A DNA stretch of 64,000 nucleotides from Nitrosopumilus sp. (GCA_965223425.1 OZ245003.1:1312001-1376000), one strand, 5' to 3'; positions 10,540-15,690 are shown, counted from the stretch's first letter. Made by a program: numbers and translations. The notes: generated by a model from the sequence alone, not told the origin.

Positions 10540-11908
10540 CAGTAGTTCCCAGATGTAGATTTACCGCAACCGCAACCGGCATCGGTTCTACTTGCCTCGA
10601 TCATTGACAAACAACTCGTTTCTGCTTGTAATGTACACGATAAACAACGCCATGGTGAGTTTTTTTCCCGCAGAAGACACTCTTCCATGCCTCTTTCCCG
10701 CATCAAGGCAGAACCTGGCAATCCTCCACAGGTTGTACAGCAGCAGCGGCAGGTAAAACATCAGCAGCCTCACAGACAGGGAGTTGCTGCATGTCCTGCC
10801 CATGATCTCCTTTATGACGCGAAACCCCGTCTCGATGCCCCATCTCTTGCGGTACTGCTCCGGTATGATGCCTGTCATGGCTCTGGCGCTCCTGATGGGA
10901 ATGTTTGTTGCAAACGCAATGTATTGCTCCTCCCCCTCCTCTTCCCCCTCCCCCTTTTTCTTCTTCTTCCTGTCTCTTTTGACAATTACAAGGTTGTAGG
11001 TCACAGTTACGCCGTCTTTGTTGGTCATTGACTGCTGCGATACCTGGCTTGCCTTTCCGTCCTTGTACATCTTGACTATCCTCTTGATCTTGGAGTTCAT
11101 GATGACAGGCATAATGTAGCGGCACCCGCCCTTTCCTGCCTCTGTCATGCAGTCAACGTTGTAAAAGGCGCGGTCGTACAGGAACACAGTCTTTGAGTGT
11201 GCGCCCCCTCTGAGGATTTTCGTGCGTGTTTTGGCTATAAAATCGGCCAGTTTTTCCTTTGCCGGTAGTAGCTTCGATTCCAGGACAATCTGCGAGGAGT
11301 CCCTGCCGACTCCGTGCACTGCGACATACGAGAGAAACGTGGATGTTCCTGCCCTTGGACGCGACTTTCTTGTATGCCCCTGCAGCTGCTCCCCATGGTA
11401 TGGTATGTCCGTAACGTCTATTGCAATGGCGTCGATGTCCTGCAGCATTCCTGTATGGCGGGCGTGCCGCACCGTGCGTGCTAATGTCTTTGCACACCAG
11501 GCCTGCACGTCTGCCGGTTTGACGCCACGGACTGCAGACATGACCAGGTCTGCATCAGGCGTACGTGCACCCGTGTCTTGAAGCCTGTTGTGCCGTACGA
11601 GGGATTCTACAAACGTGTTTCTCTCAGACGCCTTGATTAGCACGTCCAGTATGTCATTGCATCCGTATACGGCGTTGTGCCTCTCAGACATTGGCATGCC
11701 AAGCTTTTGAAACGACGAGCGCAGGATTTTAAACCGGTTTGATGTTATATTGTACTGGCGTGCGATCAGTTCGTCATGTAATTCGACTTTCATGACATAT
11801 TGCACGCCGTAGCCTAATCTGGATCTTTGCATTGCAGTTATGCGGTAACGCACCGGCATCTGGGCATAAACCTACATCTGGGCACAAATCTACATCTGGG
11901 AACTACTG
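10540..11908 (-). mobile_element. ISH3-like IS, apparently intact
   Basis: 23-bp TIRs CAGTAGTTCCCAGATGTAGATTT; ATGT target duplication at 10536-10539 and 11909-11912. Confidence 0.93.
10588..11859 (-). CDS. DDE transposase (ISH3/IS4-like)
   Basis: IAIDVTD, LYDRAF, YRKRWGIETGFR. Confidence 0.9.
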   Translation of the reverse strand: MPVRYRITAMQRSRLGYGVQYVMKVELHDELIARQYNITSNRFKILRSSFQKLGMPMSERHNAVYGCNDILDVLIKASERNTFVESLVRHNRLQDTGARTPDADLVMSAVRGVKPADVQAWCAKTLARTVRHARHTGMLQDIDAIAIDVTDIPYHGEQLQGHTRKSRPRAGTSTFLSYVAVHGVGRDSSQIVLESKLLPAKEKLADFIAKTRTKILRGGAHSKTVFLYDRAFYNVDCMTEAGKGGCRYIMPVIMNSKIKRIVKMYKDGKASQVSQQSMTNKDGVTVTYNLVIVKRDRKKKKKGEGEEEGEEQYIAFATNIPIRSARAMTGIIPEQYRKRWGIETGFRVIKEIMGRTCSNSLSVRLLMFYLPLLLYNLWRIARFCLDAGKRHGRVSSAGKKLTMALFIVYITSRNELFVNDRGK

Positions 11909-12232: not shown

Positions 12233-13258
12233 TCACTTTGTAATTCGTTTAAACTCTTGCTCATCTCCTACCACCATAATCATCGGATTGTTTGTAATTT
12301 CTCTTAACAGAGGTATCCTATCTTTAGATTTCATCTTAAATTCTTTTTCTGTCCATAATGTATAATGAATTTCTCTTCCAATCCTTCTTTCAAGTTCTGC
12401 AACGGATTCCATTAAATCGCCTTCTACTATCGAACCTATTACAAGTAAATCAACATCACTCGCGTCTGTTTCTTCTCCTTTTGCAATTGAACCAAAAATT
12501 AACGCAAATTTTATTTTTTCTTTAGATAATTCTTTTTTAATTAATTCGCCTGCTAATTCATATTTCAGAAATATTTTTCTTAATTCGTTGTATATTGTGC
12601 TGTTTTTGTTTATTTTATATAATACTAGATTTCCCTGTTTACGTTTTTTAACCAAGCCCAAGGGAAATATGTTATCCATCTCTTTGTACACAGTTGATGG
12701 AGACATACTAATTCTTCTTGCAATTTCATTTAAATGAAATTCATTCATAGAATTTAAAAATAATAATTTTAAGATGAGAATTAACGTATTGGATCTAAAT
12801 AATCTATCCAATGAAGTTTGTACTTTGATCTGTGGTGTTTGTTTTTTAGCTGGAAATAAAACTTTTCTTTTTACTGAAAGTAATGCTTTACTTTGTTCAG
12901 GCTTTACAACTTCTCGTATCTTTTCATCAATAGATATTACACCAATTCCAAGATTCTTACATGCGTTGATCATGTTCTTTGTGATTGATTTTTTTGGCAA
13001 CGCAAGATATGAAAAATTCACTGCATTTTTAAGATGTAATGCTTGTCGTATGCCGCTTTCTATGTTGCCTCTGTTTCCTTTTATTTCCACTGCTGTGATT
13101 TTTCCATTATCTTGTACTGCAACTAGGTCTACCATTCTGCCTCTAATTTTGACATTGTTTTTTACGTCAAAGCCCTTCTTGGCAAAATACTCTCCTACTT
13201 TTGCTTCCAATAGTTTCCAAGACCTCAAAACCCTGATTTCCTGTGATTGGACAATCAT
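12233..13258 (-). CDS. Fusion: PD-(D/E)XK endonuclease-like domain + wHTH + minimal nucleotidyltransferase
   Basis: VDLVA...AVEIK; FHLNEIARRISMSPSTVYKE; FGSIAKGEETDASDVDL; overlaps the HEPN gene start. Confidence 0.85.
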   Translation of the reverse strand: MIVQSQEIRVLRSWKLLEAKVGEYFAKKGFDVKNNVKIRGRMVDLVAVQDNGKITAVEIKGNRGNIESGIRQALHLKNAVNFSYLALPKKSITKNMINACKNLGIGVISIDEKIREVVKPEQSKALLSVKRKVLFPAKKQTPQIKVQTSLDRLFRSNTLILILKLLFLNSMNEFHLNEIARRISMSPSTVYKEMDNIFPLGLVKKRKQGNLVLYKINKNSTIYNELRKIFLKYELAGELIKKELSKEKIKFALIFGSIAKGEETDASDVDLLVIGSIVEGDLMESVAELERRIGREIHYTLWTEKEFKMKSKDRIPLLREITNNPMIMVVGDEQEFKRITK

Positions 13259-13276
13259 TTCTTAATAGGAAATATG

Positions 13277-13306
13277 GTTTTCTAGTATTTATAATTTTGT
13301 AGAAAC
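13277..13306. promoter_or_regulatory. Putative promoter/operator of the MNT-HEPN operon
   Basis: Inverted arms TTTCTA...TAGAAA bracketing a TTTATAA box just upstream of the start. Confidence 0.35.
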
Positions 13307-13307
13307 T

Positions 13308-14598
13308 GGTTCTGTGAAGTTATCGGGAGTTACATGTCAATTCCCAAAATGTACAAGCCTCCAAACCGCAAGATATTCGCTGAAGGCGATAAAGCCAATA
13401 TCACAGAAATATGCGCCGAACTCTGACCTAATGGATATGGCGGCTACATTCACAAAGATGGCCAATCATTGCATCAAGATAGGGTTGAAAGAAGACACTC
13501 ACAATATGAAGAGGCTGTCCATGTTATGTTATCACGAATTACGTAACTATGACATTTTATCGTCATACAAGATATGTGCAATATCAAGAGCTGCAGGCAT
13601 ATTATCAAACAGAAAACAATCAGTCAAACGAGGTGTCAGAATAAGAGACCCAATAGTCAAAAATCCCTTTATGACAAACTGTTACGGCATAAAACACAAC
13701 GGTGCACTACTAACAATCCCATACAAGAAGCATAACCCAATCAACATTTTACTCAACGATCACGCCCAAAAAATCCTGTCTGATCCCGCCCTGACGGTGC
13801 GCTCGTTTTCACTGACTGCCCTCAACATCAGTCTTTGTGTTTCAAAAAAAGTACAAGAGATAGAGTGCACCAAGAAAGTTGGAATAGACAGAAACCTAAG
13901 AAATGTGACGTGTGGGAGCGAGGAAGGGGTGACAGTCTACAAGACAAACAAACTGTTATCCATAAAGGAGAACACAGTACACGCCAGGGCAGGCTTCCAC
14001 AGAAATGACCGCAGGAAGAAAAATCAGTTCTGCAAGGAAAAACAGAGAAGACTGACTGACAGAACAAAGCAGTACATCCACAGAATATCAAAGGATATTG
14101 TGGATAATGCCGTCAAAGAAAAGGCTGCAATCGTTCTAGAAAACCTGAAAGGAGTTAGAAAACTCTACAAAAAAGGAAATGGTCAGGGCAGCAAGTACAG
14201 GCGCAGATTGAACGGGTGGCAATTCTACGAGCTGCAACGCCAAATAGAATACAAAGCCCGATGGGTCGGGCTCCCGCCAGTCGAGACAGTAGACCCAAGA
14301 AACACGAGCACGCAGTGTCCGCAATGCGGAAAGAGACTCCAAGAGGACATGCAACAGCATCGTAAACTGTCGTGTAATAATTGCGGTTTGTTTATGGACA
14401 GGGATATTGTCGCTGCCATGAACAACATATCACGCAAGCTGCCCCCTAGGTTTAGGGGCAGTAGAGATGACATATGTGAAGCGCAGTCCGGCACTTTTGA
14501 GCCGGCGATGACGGAATCCGGCACACCATTGGCAATCCGAATAGTCGATATGTCAAAGTCGAGTTATAGGGGTTAACTCCCGATAACTTCACAGAACC
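13308..14598 (+). mobile_element. Non-autonomous TIR element carrying only tnpB
   Basis: Perfect 25-bp TIRs GGTTCTGTGAAGTTATCGGGAGTTA at 13308-13332 and 14574-14598; no target duplication seen. Confidence 0.85.
13314..14576 (+). CDS. tnpB: TnpB/Cas12f-like RNA-guided endonuclease; true start probably downstream of 13314
   Basis: RuvC-I GIDRN, RuvC-II IVLENL, Zn finger CPQC...CNNC, RuvC-III DRDIVAAMN; stop codon lies inside the right TIR. Confidence 0.93.
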   Translation: MKLSGVTCQFPKCTSLQTARYSLKAIKPISQKYAPNSDLMDMAATFTKMANHCIKIGLKEDTHNMKRLSMLCYHELRNYDILSSYKICAISRAAGILSNRKQSVKRGVRIRDPIVKNPFMTNCYGIKHNGALLTIPYKKHNPINILLNDHAQKILSDPALTVRSFSLTALNISLCVSKKVQEIECTKKVGIDRNLRNVTCGSEEGVTVYKTNKLLSIKENTVHARAGFHRNDRRKKNQFCKEKQRRLTDRTKQYIHRISKDIVDNAVKEKAAIVLENLKGVRKLYKKGNGQGSKYRRRLNGWQFYELQRQIEYKARWVGLPPVETVDPRNTSTQCPQCGKRLQEDMQQHRKLSCNNCGLFMDRDIVAAMNNISRKLPPRFRGSRDDICEAQSGTFEPAMTESGTPLAIRIVDMSKSSYRG

Positions 14599-15690
14599 TT
14601 ATGTTACTATCTCATCAAGGCGGTCTTCTTCCTGGGCTTGCCTAATCTCCATCGCAATTCTTCTACCTACGCCAAAGGTTTTACCGTATTGATATTTTGT
14701 ATAAGGGCTTGTAGTTGCAACTATCGGATTTCCAGGAACTCTTAATGACACATCATATACGATTAGCTCCAAATCTTTTGTAATCACGCTCTGCAACGAG
14801 AATGGGCCAATAATGCCTGGCGCATACTCTCTTCTGACTGCTGCCACAAACCTGTCCCCCATTTTGATCACTTTTTCAAGCAGTGACTCTCTGATACTTG
14901 CAGGCGTGTGACCTACTTCTATATTTTGTAGATCCACGTCGATGTCTAATTGCTGCCTTGCAGGTAATGCATTGTAATCATGAATGTTTGTTTGCAACCT
15001 TCTTTCTATCCCGATGAAATCCACCTGGTCTGAAATTGGCGTGTGAAAGAAATTAAAATTCATGTACGTCCCTACCGCCAGTTCTTCTATACTTGATTTT
15101 TCTAAATCTTTTTTTGAGATAATGCCTTGCTTGATTTTTGCTGCTGATTTTTCCTTGTAATCCTTGTAAGACGAAACTGTAAAAAATGCCCTCTCCAAGG
15201 GCCTATTTTTTTCTTGAACCTTTACAATACAAGGCCTGTTGATTCTCTTTGGATCCTTGAACAGCTTGGGGTATTTTATTCTGGCTTTTTCTAAAAGATA
15301 ATACTGCCCTTTTTTTGCAGTTCTTTCTTCTGCTTGAAACAGACGTCTATTTCCAAAAATTGGCACTTTGAATGTGTTTTCTATTGTCTTGTATCCGAGA
15401 TAAACGGTAAGTGATCTGTGTGGAACTATGATTGTGTTTGACTCCCGCAGTTTTTTTTGAATTTTGGCCAAAGCCATGTCTTTGAATTTGTCAAGTACTA
15501 CGATCTCATCTGCAATTCTCTTGAATCTTTGATATGGCCCCTCTCTTCCTTTTTGGCAAAATACTGTGGTTTGAAAGTCCTCATCTTTTGCCCCGTCCAT
15601 TACTTCTAATGCCGAATGACTGCCAAGAACCCCAATTTTTACGTCCGAATAATCGTTGACTATCTTCTTAATCTCAGAGCTTTTAATCAT
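14599..15690 (-). CDS. purP: PurP-family formate--phosphoribosylaminoimidazolecarboxamide ligase (ATP-grasp)
   Basis: GSHSALEVMDGAKDE, IFGNR, SIRESLL, GIIGPFSLQ. Confidence 0.88.
   Translation of the reverse strand: MIKSSEIKKIVNDYSDVKIGVLGSHSALEVMDGAKDEDFQTTVFCQKGREGPYQRFKRIADEIVVLDKFKDMALAKIQKKLRESNTIIVPHRSLTVYLGYKTIENTFKVPIFGNRRLFQAEERTAKKGQYYLLEKARIKYPKLFKDPKRINRPCIVKVQEKNRPLERAFFTVSSYKDYKEKSAAKIKQGIISKKDLEKSSIEELAVGTYMNFNFFHTPISDQVDFIGIERRLQTNIHDYNALPARQQLDIDVDLQNIEVGHTPASIRESLLEKVIKMGDRFVAAVRREYAPGIIGPFSLQSVITKDLELIVYDVSLRVPGNPIVATTSPYTKYQYGKTFGVGRRIAMEIRQAQEEDRLDEIVT

What the first reader, a model, noticed from the sequence alone, without database searches (positions are those of the whole stretch)
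13308..14598. TnpB with intact RuvC motifs enclosed by perfect 25-bp terminal inverted repeats with IS6-like termini
Seen: a lone tnpB with all three RuvC acidic residues and the Zn finger, bounded by perfect TIRs starting GGTTCTGT. The stop codon lies inside the right TIR, the right end abuts the purP stop codon, and there is no transposase or target duplication. Established: IS200/IS605 and IS607 elements, the usual TnpB carriers, have no TIRs, and GGTTCTGT is the terminus of IS6-family members such as IS257 and ISS1. Inference: TnpB captured by a non-autonomous DDE-type element mobilised in trans, a prokaryotic parallel to Fanzor capture. The omega-RNA would run through the TIR and take purP-antisense flank (TTATGTTACTATCTC...) as guide.
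Basis: partly seen in the sequence, partly recalled or inferred. Interest (0 to 1): 0.8.

Follow-up and report, generated by a model that had tools for sequence, protein, structure and literature searches.

The report
TnpB riding an IS6-like transposon
An RNA-guided nuclease gene (TnpB) and its guide-RNA scaffold sit inside a small multi-copy archaeal transposon that has IS6-type inverted ends and makes 8-bp target duplications, and every dated insertion lies next to a short motif placed where the nuclease's recognition motif should be.

Summary
Window 13308-14598 is a 1291-bp element with perfect 25-bp terminal inverted repeats (TIRs) around an intact tnpB.

It is one of about 12 copies in this genome. 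The family makes 8-bp target duplications. The window copy lacks one only because it recombined with an inverted copy 126 kb away, and empty sites in relatives confirm this.

The genome has no Y1 TnpA and no serine recombinase. IS240/IS6-type DDE transposase elements with the same GGTTCTG ends and 8-bp duplications occur in this genome and across the class. None lies within 1.2 kb of a TnpB gene, so the element is non-autonomous and probably moved in trans.

A covarying RNA structure overlaps the 3' end of tnpB and runs into the right TIR, like an omega RNA.

The new point is a motif. At 35 of 35 insertion sites with a duplication, 5'-WTR (mostly TTG or TTA) sits just 5' of the duplication, on the tnpB-upstream side only. 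DDE-only elements show it in 4 of 24 end views. This is the geometry expected of a TnpB target-adjacent motif (TAM) with a guide starting at the duplication.

DDE-linked TnpBs with inverted ends were reported in 2023, so this is a new variant, not a new kind.

The parts
13297..13299 (+). TTG, candidate TAM, immediately 5' of the left 8-mer
   Evidence: At 35 of 35 sites with a duplication, position -11 is W, -10 is T and -9 is R relative to the left end. The sequence was read.
13300..13307 (+). TAGAAACT, the left half of the target duplication of the insertion that created this left end
   Evidence: The same 8-mer flanks the right end of copy C1:1451399-1452689.
13308..14598 (+). Whole 1291-bp non-autonomous element
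   Evidence: Seven other copies of exactly 1291 bp are 97.0-98.9% identical with no gaps. In other sequencing runs, unlike flanks begin exactly at 13308 and 14598 (table 7).
13308..13332 (.). Left terminal inverted repeat, 25 bp, starting GGTTCTGT
13314..14576 (+). tnpB ORF. RuvC D192 = 13887-13889, E276 = 14139-14141, D364 = 14403-14405. Zn-finger cysteines are 335, 338, 354 and 357. Homologues start at codon 23 = 13380.
   Evidence: pN/pS is 0.40 among 8 copies.
14438..14598 (+). Omega-RNA-like scaffold. Helices: 14438-14445 with 14455-14462; 14468-14474 with 14549-14555; 14489-14492 with 14501-14504. It continues through the right TIR to the element end.
   Evidence: On 25 sequences, 96.8% of cells pair against 34-43% when partners are slid. 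16 of 19 pairs show compensatory changes. No Rfam family matches.
14574..14598 (.). Right terminal inverted repeat; it contains the tnpB stop codon
14599..14618 (+). Predicted guide template. The first 8 nt (TTATGTTA) are half of a target duplication whose partner lies next to the left end of copy C1:1451399-1452689.
   Evidence: That this stretch serves as guide is inferred from TnpB biology.
14599..15690 (-). purP (formate-dependent FAICAR synthetase). Its stop codon lies inside the 8-mer.

Best explanation
The element is a non-autonomous transposon built on the chassis of the archaeal IS6-like (IS240-type DDE) insertion sequences. It has two roughly 25-bp inverted ends starting GGTTCTG and makes an 8-bp target duplication. 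Its only cargo is tnpB plus an omega-RNA scaffold that overlaps the 3' end of the gene and ends at the right TIR.

Proposed mechanism, in order:
1. An IS240-type DDE transposase encoded elsewhere moves the element in trans (inferred).
2. Transcription through the right end yields an omega RNA whose guide is the 8-bp duplication plus the flank beyond it (inferred).
3. In a chromosome copy that lacks the element, that guide sequence is preceded by the left flank, and there every dated insertion carries 5'-WTR (mostly TTG or TTA). I read this as the TAM.
4. TnpB would therefore cut only the empty allele. In the occupied site the guide match is preceded by the TIR tip ...AACC.
5. Recombinational repair from an occupied copy would then restore or spread the element (inferred, by analogy with IS200/IS605 TnpB).

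On this reading, copies that land beside a WTR persist and others are lost.

The window copy later recombined with an inverted copy 126 kb away. This swapped the flanks and erased its duplication (shown).
For: Anatomy and copy number
- The 25-mer TIR has 26 matches with at most 3 mismatches in the genome, 16 of them exact.
- 12 full or interrupted copies were tabulated. 5 have a perfect 8-bp duplication, 1 has one mismatch, and 2 form the reciprocal pair.
- 8 copies keep an uninterrupted frame. pN/pS is 0.40 over 28 pairs.
- All 20 tblastn TnpB segments in the genome lie in elements with these ends.

Classical partners missing
- There are 0 hits for Y1_Tnp (PF01797) and 0 for Resolvase (PF00239) in a genome that is 99.99% complete.

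Same ends on DDE elements
- PF13610 (DDE_Tnp_IS240) matches in the genome lie beside such ends.
- 12 complete DDE-carrying elements with both GGTTCTG-type ends and perfect 8-bp duplications were found among 51 loci examined.
- Within this genome, the end beside the DDE fragment at C1:793017 and the left end of the second TnpB subfamily (C1:1781136) are alike over about 30 nt, by my reading.
- The published IS6/IS26 consensus is GGTTCTGTTGCAAA with 8-bp repeats (PMC6807381; PMC7986276; passages read).

Breadth
- 49 of 78 TnpB loci from other assemblies have both ends. 25 have a perfect 8-bp duplication and 2 have one mismatch.
- TnpBs only 30-33% identical also sit in such elements with duplications: L013, L020, L022 and L039.

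Omega RNA
- Three helices show 96.8% pairing against 34-43% in slid controls, and 16 of 19 pairs are compensatory.

TAM
- WTR is present at 35 of 35 sites on the tnpB-upstream side, and in 3 of 35 at the mirrored position.
- DDE-only elements show it in 4 of 24 end views (hand count).
- Fisher p = 3.8e-12. The genome-wide frequency of WTR is 0.079.

Inversion
- In 8 of 9 relatives examined, the DNA next to the purP stop codon is homologous to the flank beside the left end of copy 1451399. In 0 of 9 is it homologous to the window copy's own left flank.
Against: - No call shows transposition, an RNA with defined ends, or cleavage.
- No DDE element in this genome is a proven helper. The only full-length close DDE ORF (C1:917303-918340, 345 aa) has a degenerate left end. 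It is about 37 residues shorter at the N-terminus than relatives.
- 13 of 39 genomes with this TnpB clade showed no IS240-type DDE at E <= 1e-30 (hand cross-tabulation). Most of these 13 are fragmented assemblies.
- 29 of the 35 motif sites come from two genomes (8 from G000, 21 from one relative).
- Among elements without a recognisable duplication, only 13 of 22 show WTR.
- A random-insertion-plus-filter model needs non-WTR insertions to persist under about 1% as well as WTR ones. That figure is my own arithmetic, not a call result.
- IS6-family transposition is described as replicative (PMC7986276). That removes the excision step which gives TnpB its known role. No experimental data exist for archaeal members (PMC6807381).
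Confidence: 0.65

Rival explanations
1. The WTR motif is chosen at the moment of insertion. TnpB, or another factor bound to the left end, recognises WTR in target DNA and positions the DDE transpososome so that strand transfer occurs at a fixed 8-bp offset. The motif would then be a targeting signal rather than the product of later homing or selection.
For: The motif is invariant at 35 of 35 sites and one-sided with respect to tnpB. It is absent from DDE-only elements (4 of 24 end views). That degree of invariance is easier to obtain by targeting than by a filter acting on random insertions.
Against: No known TnpB directs a transposase. No DDE gene lies within 1.2 kb of any of 85 TnpB loci, so any partnership would have to act in trans. 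The position of the motif is exactly what the ordinary TAM-plus-guide geometry predicts, without any new activity.
Confidence: 0.2
2. TnpB is passive or decaying cargo. The element is simply a MITE-like vehicle, and the flank motif reflects something else, such as a promoter need or AT-rich targets.
For: The usual start codon is replaced by CTG in this genome's copies. Copies differ by 1-3%, so the last burst of transposition is not recent.
Against: The catalytic triad and Zn finger are invariant. 8 of 12 copies keep the frame and pN/pS is 0.40. The RNA structure keeps compensatory changes. An invariant T followed by R at fixed positions is too sharp for a compositional effect, given a background frequency of 0.079.
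Confidence: 0.08
3. An ordinary IS605/IS1341-type tnpB element with its own internal ends has inserted into an older MITE, so the TIRs are unrelated to TnpB.
For: None found.
Against: TIR-to-TIR units of 1262-1450 bp are kept across TnpB subfamilies down to about 45% identity. tnpB begins about 70 nt from the left end and stops inside or near the right TIR. The RNA scaffold runs into the TIR. The motif is set off from the TIR boundary by exactly the duplication. The genome has no Y1 TnpA.
Confidence: 0.02
4. The mobilising enzyme is a DDE_Tnp_4 (IS5/Harbinger-like) transposase. One relative (G002) has such a gene inside the same TIR pair as tnpB.
For: In L039 a 416-aa DDE_Tnp_4 ORF lies between tnpB and the left TIR, in an element with an 8-bp duplication.
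Against: That gene belongs to a separate 1490-bp IS. The IS has 3 other identical-protein copies in G002, and the one compared (L065), like the G303 copies, shares only the 1490 bp. It interrupts the 5' part of tnpB. The closest homologues in this genome have unrelated ends.
Confidence: 0.02

Closest known systems
DDE-transposon-associated TnpB branches (DDE-1 to DDE-6) of Altae-Tran et al. 2023, PMC10691335
   Same: TnpB sits inside transposons with inverted terminal repeats. Solo TnpBs occur with the same ends as transposase-bearing relatives. The TnpB 3' end lies close to the transposon end (passages read).
   Different: The main text names only IS630. A 2026 review (PMC13565253) lists ISL2, IS630 and IS1031. 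IS6, IS240 and Thaumarchaeota do not occur in the main text. In the loci examined here the transposase is never within 1.2 kb of tnpB. I saw no passage describing a TAM displaced from the end by the target duplication.
IS6/IS26 family, archaeal clades (Varani 2021, PMC7986276; Harmer and Hall 2019, PMC6807381)
   Same: The tips are GG with G at position 7 and a CTGT core. Duplications are 8 bp. MITEs and rare passenger genes are known. Related elements here encode a PF13610 DDE transposase.
   Different: The window element has no transposase. Its cargo is TnpB plus an RNA; 'TnpB' occurs 0 times in PMC7986276. The DDE elements here are 1.9-4.5 kb with extra ORFs and 345-376-aa transposases with Cys-rich N-termini, against about 0.8 kb for classical members. 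Harmer and Hall argue that archaeal members may not belong in the family.
IS1341-group (tnpB-only) elements of IS200/IS605
   Same: They are a single tnpB gene of similar size, non-autonomous, with an omega-RNA at the 3' end and a TAM on the upstream flank.
   Different: IS200/IS605 elements have no TIRs and no duplication, use subterminal hairpins, and depend on Y1 TnpA (PMC13565253, PMC4810608; passages read). This element has TIRs and 8-bp duplications in a genome with no Y1 TnpA.
Fanzor in eukaryotic TIR transposons (Bao and Jurka 2013, PMC3627910; abstract seen in the listing)
   Same: A TnpB-family nuclease is carried as cargo by cut-and-paste-type elements that have TIRs and make duplications.
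   Different: This is a prokaryotic host, a compact TnpB-size protein, and a different transposon superfamily.

Membership tests
TnpB (RNA-guided endonuclease, OMEGA system) | Sequence membership above the curated cut-off | tested here: met
   NF040570 scores 119.9 bits against a cut-off of 100. PF07282 scores 72.7 against 26.3.
TnpB (RNA-guided endonuclease, OMEGA system) | RuvC D-E-D triad and CxxC...CxxC zinc finger | tested here: met
   D192, E276, D364, C335, C338, C354 and C357 are invariant in 13 sequences. The E and the last D align to the matching motifs of a solved relative. Assigning these residues as catalytic rests on family knowledge.
TnpB (RNA-guided endonuclease, OMEGA system) | Structured omega RNA overlapping the 3' end of the gene and ending at the element boundary | tested here: met
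   Covariation is shown. The transcript itself has not been observed.
TnpB (RNA-guided endonuclease, OMEGA system) | TAM 5' of the guide-matching target; RNA-guided cleavage | tested here: inconclusive
   A WTR motif sits at the predicted place in 35 of 35 sites. Cleavage cannot be tested with these tools.
IS200/IS605 (IS1341 group) | No terminal inverted repeats and no target duplication; subterminal hairpins | tested here: not met
   The element has perfect 25-bp TIRs, and the family makes 8-bp duplications.
IS200/IS605 (IS1341 group) | Y1 (HUH) TnpA available in the genome | tested here: not met
   PF01797 gives 0 matches in a genome that is 99.99% complete.
IS607 | Serine recombinase TnpA | tested here: not met
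   PF00239 gives 0 matches.
IS6/IS26 family (archaeal IS240-type) | Ends: GG tips, G at position 7, CTGT core, 15-20+ bp TIR | tested here: met
   The TIR starts GGTTCTGTGAAGTTATCG. This compares with the published consensus GGTTCTGTTGCAAA and the motif description.
IS6/IS26 family (archaeal IS240-type) | 8-bp direct target repeats | tested here: met
IS6/IS26 family (archaeal IS240-type) | Encodes its own DDE transposase (PF13610) | tested here: not met
   There is none in the element and none within 1.2 kb of 85 TnpB loci. It is therefore a non-autonomous derivative, not an IS6 member in the strict sense. Related autonomous elements with such ends do exist.
IS6/IS26 family (archaeal IS240-type) | Mobilisation by that transposase (cointegrate pathway) | not testable with these tools
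   This needs a transposition assay.
DDE-associated TnpB branches (Altae-Tran 2023) | Placement of the protein in one of the branches DDE-1 to DDE-6 | not testable with these tools

The most novel reading that the evidence does not exclude
The motif shows that a DDE-type transposon in archaea depends on its TnpB at every successful insertion. Either TnpB homing is effectively obligatory for a copy to persist, so that elements are 'anchored' only beside a TAM. Or TnpB reads the TAM in target DNA and sets the insertion point 8 bp downstream, which would be a natural, CRISPR-free form of nuclease-assisted target choice by a DDE transposase. Either way the IS6-like chassis would serve as an exchangeable vehicle (DDE, TnpB, unknown ORFs, MITEs) with TnpB as a self-sufficient 'retention module'.
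Probability: 0.2. Interest if true: 0.9.

Novelty: new variant of a known kind. Interest (0 to 1): 0.68.

Why it matters
TnpB's accepted role is to restore IS200/IS605 and IS607 elements after scarless excision. Why it should also ride DDE transposons, in prokaryotes and as Fanzor in eukaryotes, is an open question; the 2026 review (PMC13565253) says the association is rare and its benefit unclear.

This case offers a compact, abundant system of about 1.3 kb that occurs in many ammonia-oxidising archaea. Here the TnpB-specific flank motif can be separated cleanly from the transposase's own lack of target preference, because DDE-only and cargo-only siblings with the same ends exist side by side.

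That makes the question directly testable. It also gives a predicted short TAM (TTG or TTA) and guide start for a small archaeal TnpB.

Tried and rejected
- DDE_Tnp_4 as the partner. A gene of this type lies inside one relative's element. It proved to be a separate 1490-bp IS inserted into tnpB. Its homologues in this genome have unrelated ends.
- A clean left TIR for this genome's best DDE ORF (C1:917303-918340). Only a degenerate match was found.
- Rfam over 13200-14750 at E <= 1 gave only one chance-level match, to a human lncRNA model and below its gathering score.
- RNA evidence. The only RNA run found holds 0.09 of the sampled words and is kept as contigs. When laid, its contigs are deeper over 14240-14600 than over the 5' part of the gene. 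A DNA run shows the same trend because relatives are more alike there. Contig depth is no measure of expression, so I draw nothing from it.
- One contig in X5 joins 13329 to 14577; I did not pursue it.
- The search of earlier findings was not open.
- Literature searches for TnpB with IS6 (whole word), with Thaumarchaeota, and with DDE plus target site duplication plus archaea found no description of this element.
- The strict end pattern used missed ends such as GGTTCTGTGTAATC. By my hand count against the gene coordinates, it found an end within 100 bp of the DDE stop in 11 of 30 loci. The relaxed search replaces it.

Full report
**1. The observation**

Window 13308-14598 is bounded by two 25-nt arms that are perfectly complementary. 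The 25-mer occurs only at these two places in the window, against 0 expected in 100 shuffles.

Between the arms lies one ORF, 13314-14576 on the plus strand. It scores above the curated cut-offs of NCBIfam guided_TnpB (119.9 bits against 100) and Pfam Cas12f1-like_TNB. In an alignment with 12 homologues of 51-97% identity, the RuvC residues D192, E276 and D364 and the four zinc-finger cysteines are invariant.

The stop codon is the first triplet of the right arm. The next base (14599) is the last base of the purP ORF on the other strand. The flanking 8-mers differ.

The GTG start inside the left arm is doubtful. Homologues start at the position of codon 23, which in this genome is CTG.

**2. 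A multi-copy element that makes 8-bp target duplications**

The whole genome (2.64 Mb, 99.99% complete) holds 26 matches to the 25-mer with at most 3 mismatches, 16 of them exact. I tabulated 12 paired copies:
- Eight are exactly 1291 bp. The other seven are 97.0-98.9% identical to the window copy with no gaps, and all eight keep the frame open.
- Two are interrupted by other insertion sequences.
- Two are diverged and have a damaged left tip.

Five of the 12 have perfect 8-bp direct repeats of the flank and one has a single mismatch.

The window copy and the inverted copy at C1:1451399-1452689 carry each other's 8-mers (TAGAAACT and TTATGTTA). I tested this against relatives:
- In 8 of 9 relatives examined, the DNA next to the purP stop codon is homologous to the flank beside the left end of copy 1451399.
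- In 0 of 9 is it homologous to the window copy's own left flank.
- TTATGTTA, or a one-letter variant of it, is there only once.

So the missing duplication is the trace of a roughly 126-kb inversion by recombination between two copies. In other sequencing runs, unlike flanks begin exactly at 13308 and 14598 (table 7).

**3. What could move it**

The genome has no match to the Y1 transposase family or to the serine recombinase family. The usual TnpB partners are therefore missing. All 20 tblastn TnpB segments in the genome lie in elements with these ends: the 12 copies, three remnants, and two copies of a second subfamily at 82% identity.

The first 18 nt of the TIR recur at 61 places with at most 3 mismatches. 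These include:
- MITE-like pairs of 86-141 bp.
- Ends lying 30-65 bp after the stop codons of genes that match Pfam DDE_Tnp_IS240, the IS6-family transposase domain.

Homologues of that transposase were found in 154 of 401 genomes sampled from the class. That count includes five unpublished genomes; without them it is 149 of 396. Among 51 such loci, 12 are complete elements of 1855-4509 bp with GGTTCTG-type ends on both sides and a perfect 8-bp duplication. None of them holds TnpB.

Published descriptions of the IS6/IS26 family give 8-bp target repeats, GG tips, a CTGT core and the consensus GGTTCTGTTGCAAA (passages read in PMC7986276, and PMC6807381). Harmer and Hall consider the archaeal members only distantly related to the bacterial ones.

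No IS240-type gene lies within 1.2 kb of any of 85 TnpB loci, so the TnpB elements are consistently non-autonomous. Of 39 genomes with this TnpB clade, 26 also had the DDE. This is my hand cross-tabulation and it assumes the two calls drew the same 401 genomes. It is 22 of 35 without the unpublished genomes G164, G257, G305 and G347. This is supportive but not proof.

Mobilisation in trans by such a transposase is an inference. The one full-length close homologue in this genome has a degenerate left end.

**4. A false lead**

In relative G002 a DDE_Tnp_4 gene lies between tnpB and the left TIR. It belongs to a 1490-bp IS that has other copies elsewhere; the copy compared in G002 (L065) and the G303 copies share only that 1490 bp. 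It interrupts the 5' part of tnpB. Without it, that element is 1313 bp long with an 8-bp duplication, like the others.

**5. Breadth**

Of 78 TnpB loci from other assemblies:
- 49 have GGTTCTG-type termini at both ends, and of these 25 have a perfect 8-bp duplication and 2 have one mismatch.
- 21 gave no inverted repeat; many of these are cut by contig ends.
- 8 lacked one recognisable tip.

TnpBs only 30-33% identical, one from another family of the order, are also framed by such ends and 8-bp duplications: L013, L020, L022 and L039. Record titles and source names place the relatives in Nitrosopumilus and neighbouring ammonia-oxidising archaea, with a few in Bathyarchaeia.

**6. Omega-like RNA**

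I aligned the last 260 nt of 25 elements and folded the alignment. It shows three helices, at window 14438-14462, 14468-14474 with 14549-14555, and 14489-14504.
- 96.8% of cells form pairs, against 34-43% when partners are slid by 1-3 columns.
- 16 of 19 pairs show changes on both sides.
- No shuffle reached the observed covariation score.

The conserved sequence continues to the last base of the right TIR. No Rfam family matches. This is the layout of a TnpB omega RNA. The transcript itself was not observed.

Among the 8 intact copies, pN/pS is 0.40, and the last 300 nt vary least.

**7. The flank motif**

I oriented every element by tnpB and kept those with a duplication of at most one mismatch. 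That gave 27 from other assemblies, 21 of them from one genome, plus 8 sites from this genome with the inversion pair re-matched: 35 distinct sites in all.

| Position relative to the left end | Base | Sites |
|---|---|---|
| -11 | T or A | 35 of 35 (T 28, A 7) |
| -10 | T | 35 of 35 |
| -9 | G or A | 35 of 35 |

The triplets are TTG 16, TTA 12, ATA 4 and ATG 3. These three bases lie directly 5' of the 8-bp duplication.

Controls:
- The mirrored position beyond the right end matches WTR in 3 of 35.
- The 12 DDE-carrying elements match in 4 of 24 end views, with no consistent side. This is my hand count; about 2-3 would be expected by chance.
- Fisher p = 3.8e-12, and the genome-wide frequency of WTR is 0.079.
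- Elements without a recognisable duplication match in 13 of 22.

Two flanks seen in other runs also read TTG plus 8.

The motif is thus tied to TnpB cargo and to its orientation, not to the ends as such. It is where a TAM must be if the guide starts at the first base outside the right end. In an empty site the guide-matching sequence (duplication plus right flank) is preceded by the left flank. In the occupied site it is preceded by the TIR tip, which is not WTR.

**8. Mechanism, and what is shown**

Shown:
- The anatomy, copy number and 8-bp duplications.
- The inversion.
- The absence of classical partners.
- The existence of DDE elements with the same ends.
- RNA covariation.
- The one-sided motif.

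Inferred:
- Trans-mobilisation by the IS240-type DDE.
- Read-through production of the guide.
- WTR as the TAM.
- Cleavage of empty alleles followed by recombinational copying.

On this reading, copies persist only beside a TAM. The main rival is that the motif is selected at insertion, with TnpB or a left-end factor steering the transpososome. The data do not separate the two.

**9. Comparison and novelty**

- IS200/IS605 and IS607 membership fails on tested features: this element has TIRs and a duplication, and the genome has no Y1 or serine enzyme.
- Strict IS6 membership fails because the element has no transposase. It is a cargo-carrying, non-autonomous derivative of the IS6-like archaeal group.
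- TnpB inside DDE transposons with inverted ends, including solo TnpBs with the same ends, was reported by Altae-Tran et al. 2023 (PMC10691335; passages read). A 2026 review names ISL2, IS630 and IS1031 (PMC13565253).
- In the texts I could read, I found no mention of IS6 or IS240, of Thaumarchaeota, or of a TAM separated from the end by the duplication. My literature searches found nothing closer.

I therefore rate it a new variant of a known kind. Its value lies in the clean contrast between TnpB-bearing and DDE-only siblings.

Noticed in passing
window 13308-14598 and G000:C1:1451399-1452689 (outside the window): A roughly 126-kb chromosomal inversion arose by recombination between two inverted copies of the element. 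The flanks are swapped reciprocally, and relatives show the ancestral order.
   Followed up: yes
G000:C1:1199933-1200276: A 344-bp internal-deletion derivative keeps the right end with the RNA-scaffold region and a left TIR. It has an 8-bp duplication (GGATAATT) and TTG at the expected place. It may be a guide-RNA-only element served by TnpB in trans.
   Followed up: partly
G000:C1:1860917-1862710: A 1794-bp element has related perfect TIRs (starting GGCTCTG) and an 8-bp duplication. Its only sizeable ORFs (163 and 94 aa) have no Pfam match. The same chassis is carrying unknown cargo.
   Followed up: partly
G000:C1:1088904-1089044 and 1892824-1892964: These are 141-bp MITEs. One end matches the end beside a truncated IS240-type DDE gene at C1:2470372. 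The first has an 8-bp duplication.
   Followed up: partly
L088 1437-3797 (G021), and the other loci: IS240-type DDE elements are 1.9-4.5 kb and carry extra ORFs. In L088 these are a divergent 62-aa ORF and a 214-aa ORF, neither with a Pfam match. A homologous small ORF lies beside the DDE fragment at G000:C1:793965-794400. In G007 a DNA methylase gene lies upstream of the DDE.
   Followed up: partly
L013, L020, L022 (relatives): A second TnpB clade, 32-33% identical, sits in the same kind of TIR/8-bp-duplication element. The three bases 5' of the duplication are TAT, TAT and TTT. This may be a different TAM, but n = 3.
   Followed up: partly
L046 1331-2820 (G002): A 1490-bp DDE_Tnp_4 insertion sequence, whose transposase has three other identical copies in that genome, has inserted into the 5' part of a tnpB element.
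   Followed up: yes
window 10588-11859 (-) and 12233-13258 (-): An unrelated DDE_Tnp_1 transposase gene lies 1.4 kb upstream of the element. Beside the left end is a 341-aa protein that combines weak restriction-endonuclease-like, HTH and nucleotidyltransferase (MntA-like) matches.
   Followed up: no
G000, e.g. C1:2471132-2472274 and more than 30 similar places: The genome is crowded with insertion sequences. One repeat of about 1146 bp has more than 30 copies at 92-98% identity. There are 59 matches to DDE_Tnp_4.
   Followed up: no
window 13329 joined to 14577 in run X5: One contig in another sample joins the inner edges of the two TIRs and skips 1247 bp. This may be a TIR-only mini-element (table 5).
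   Followed up: no
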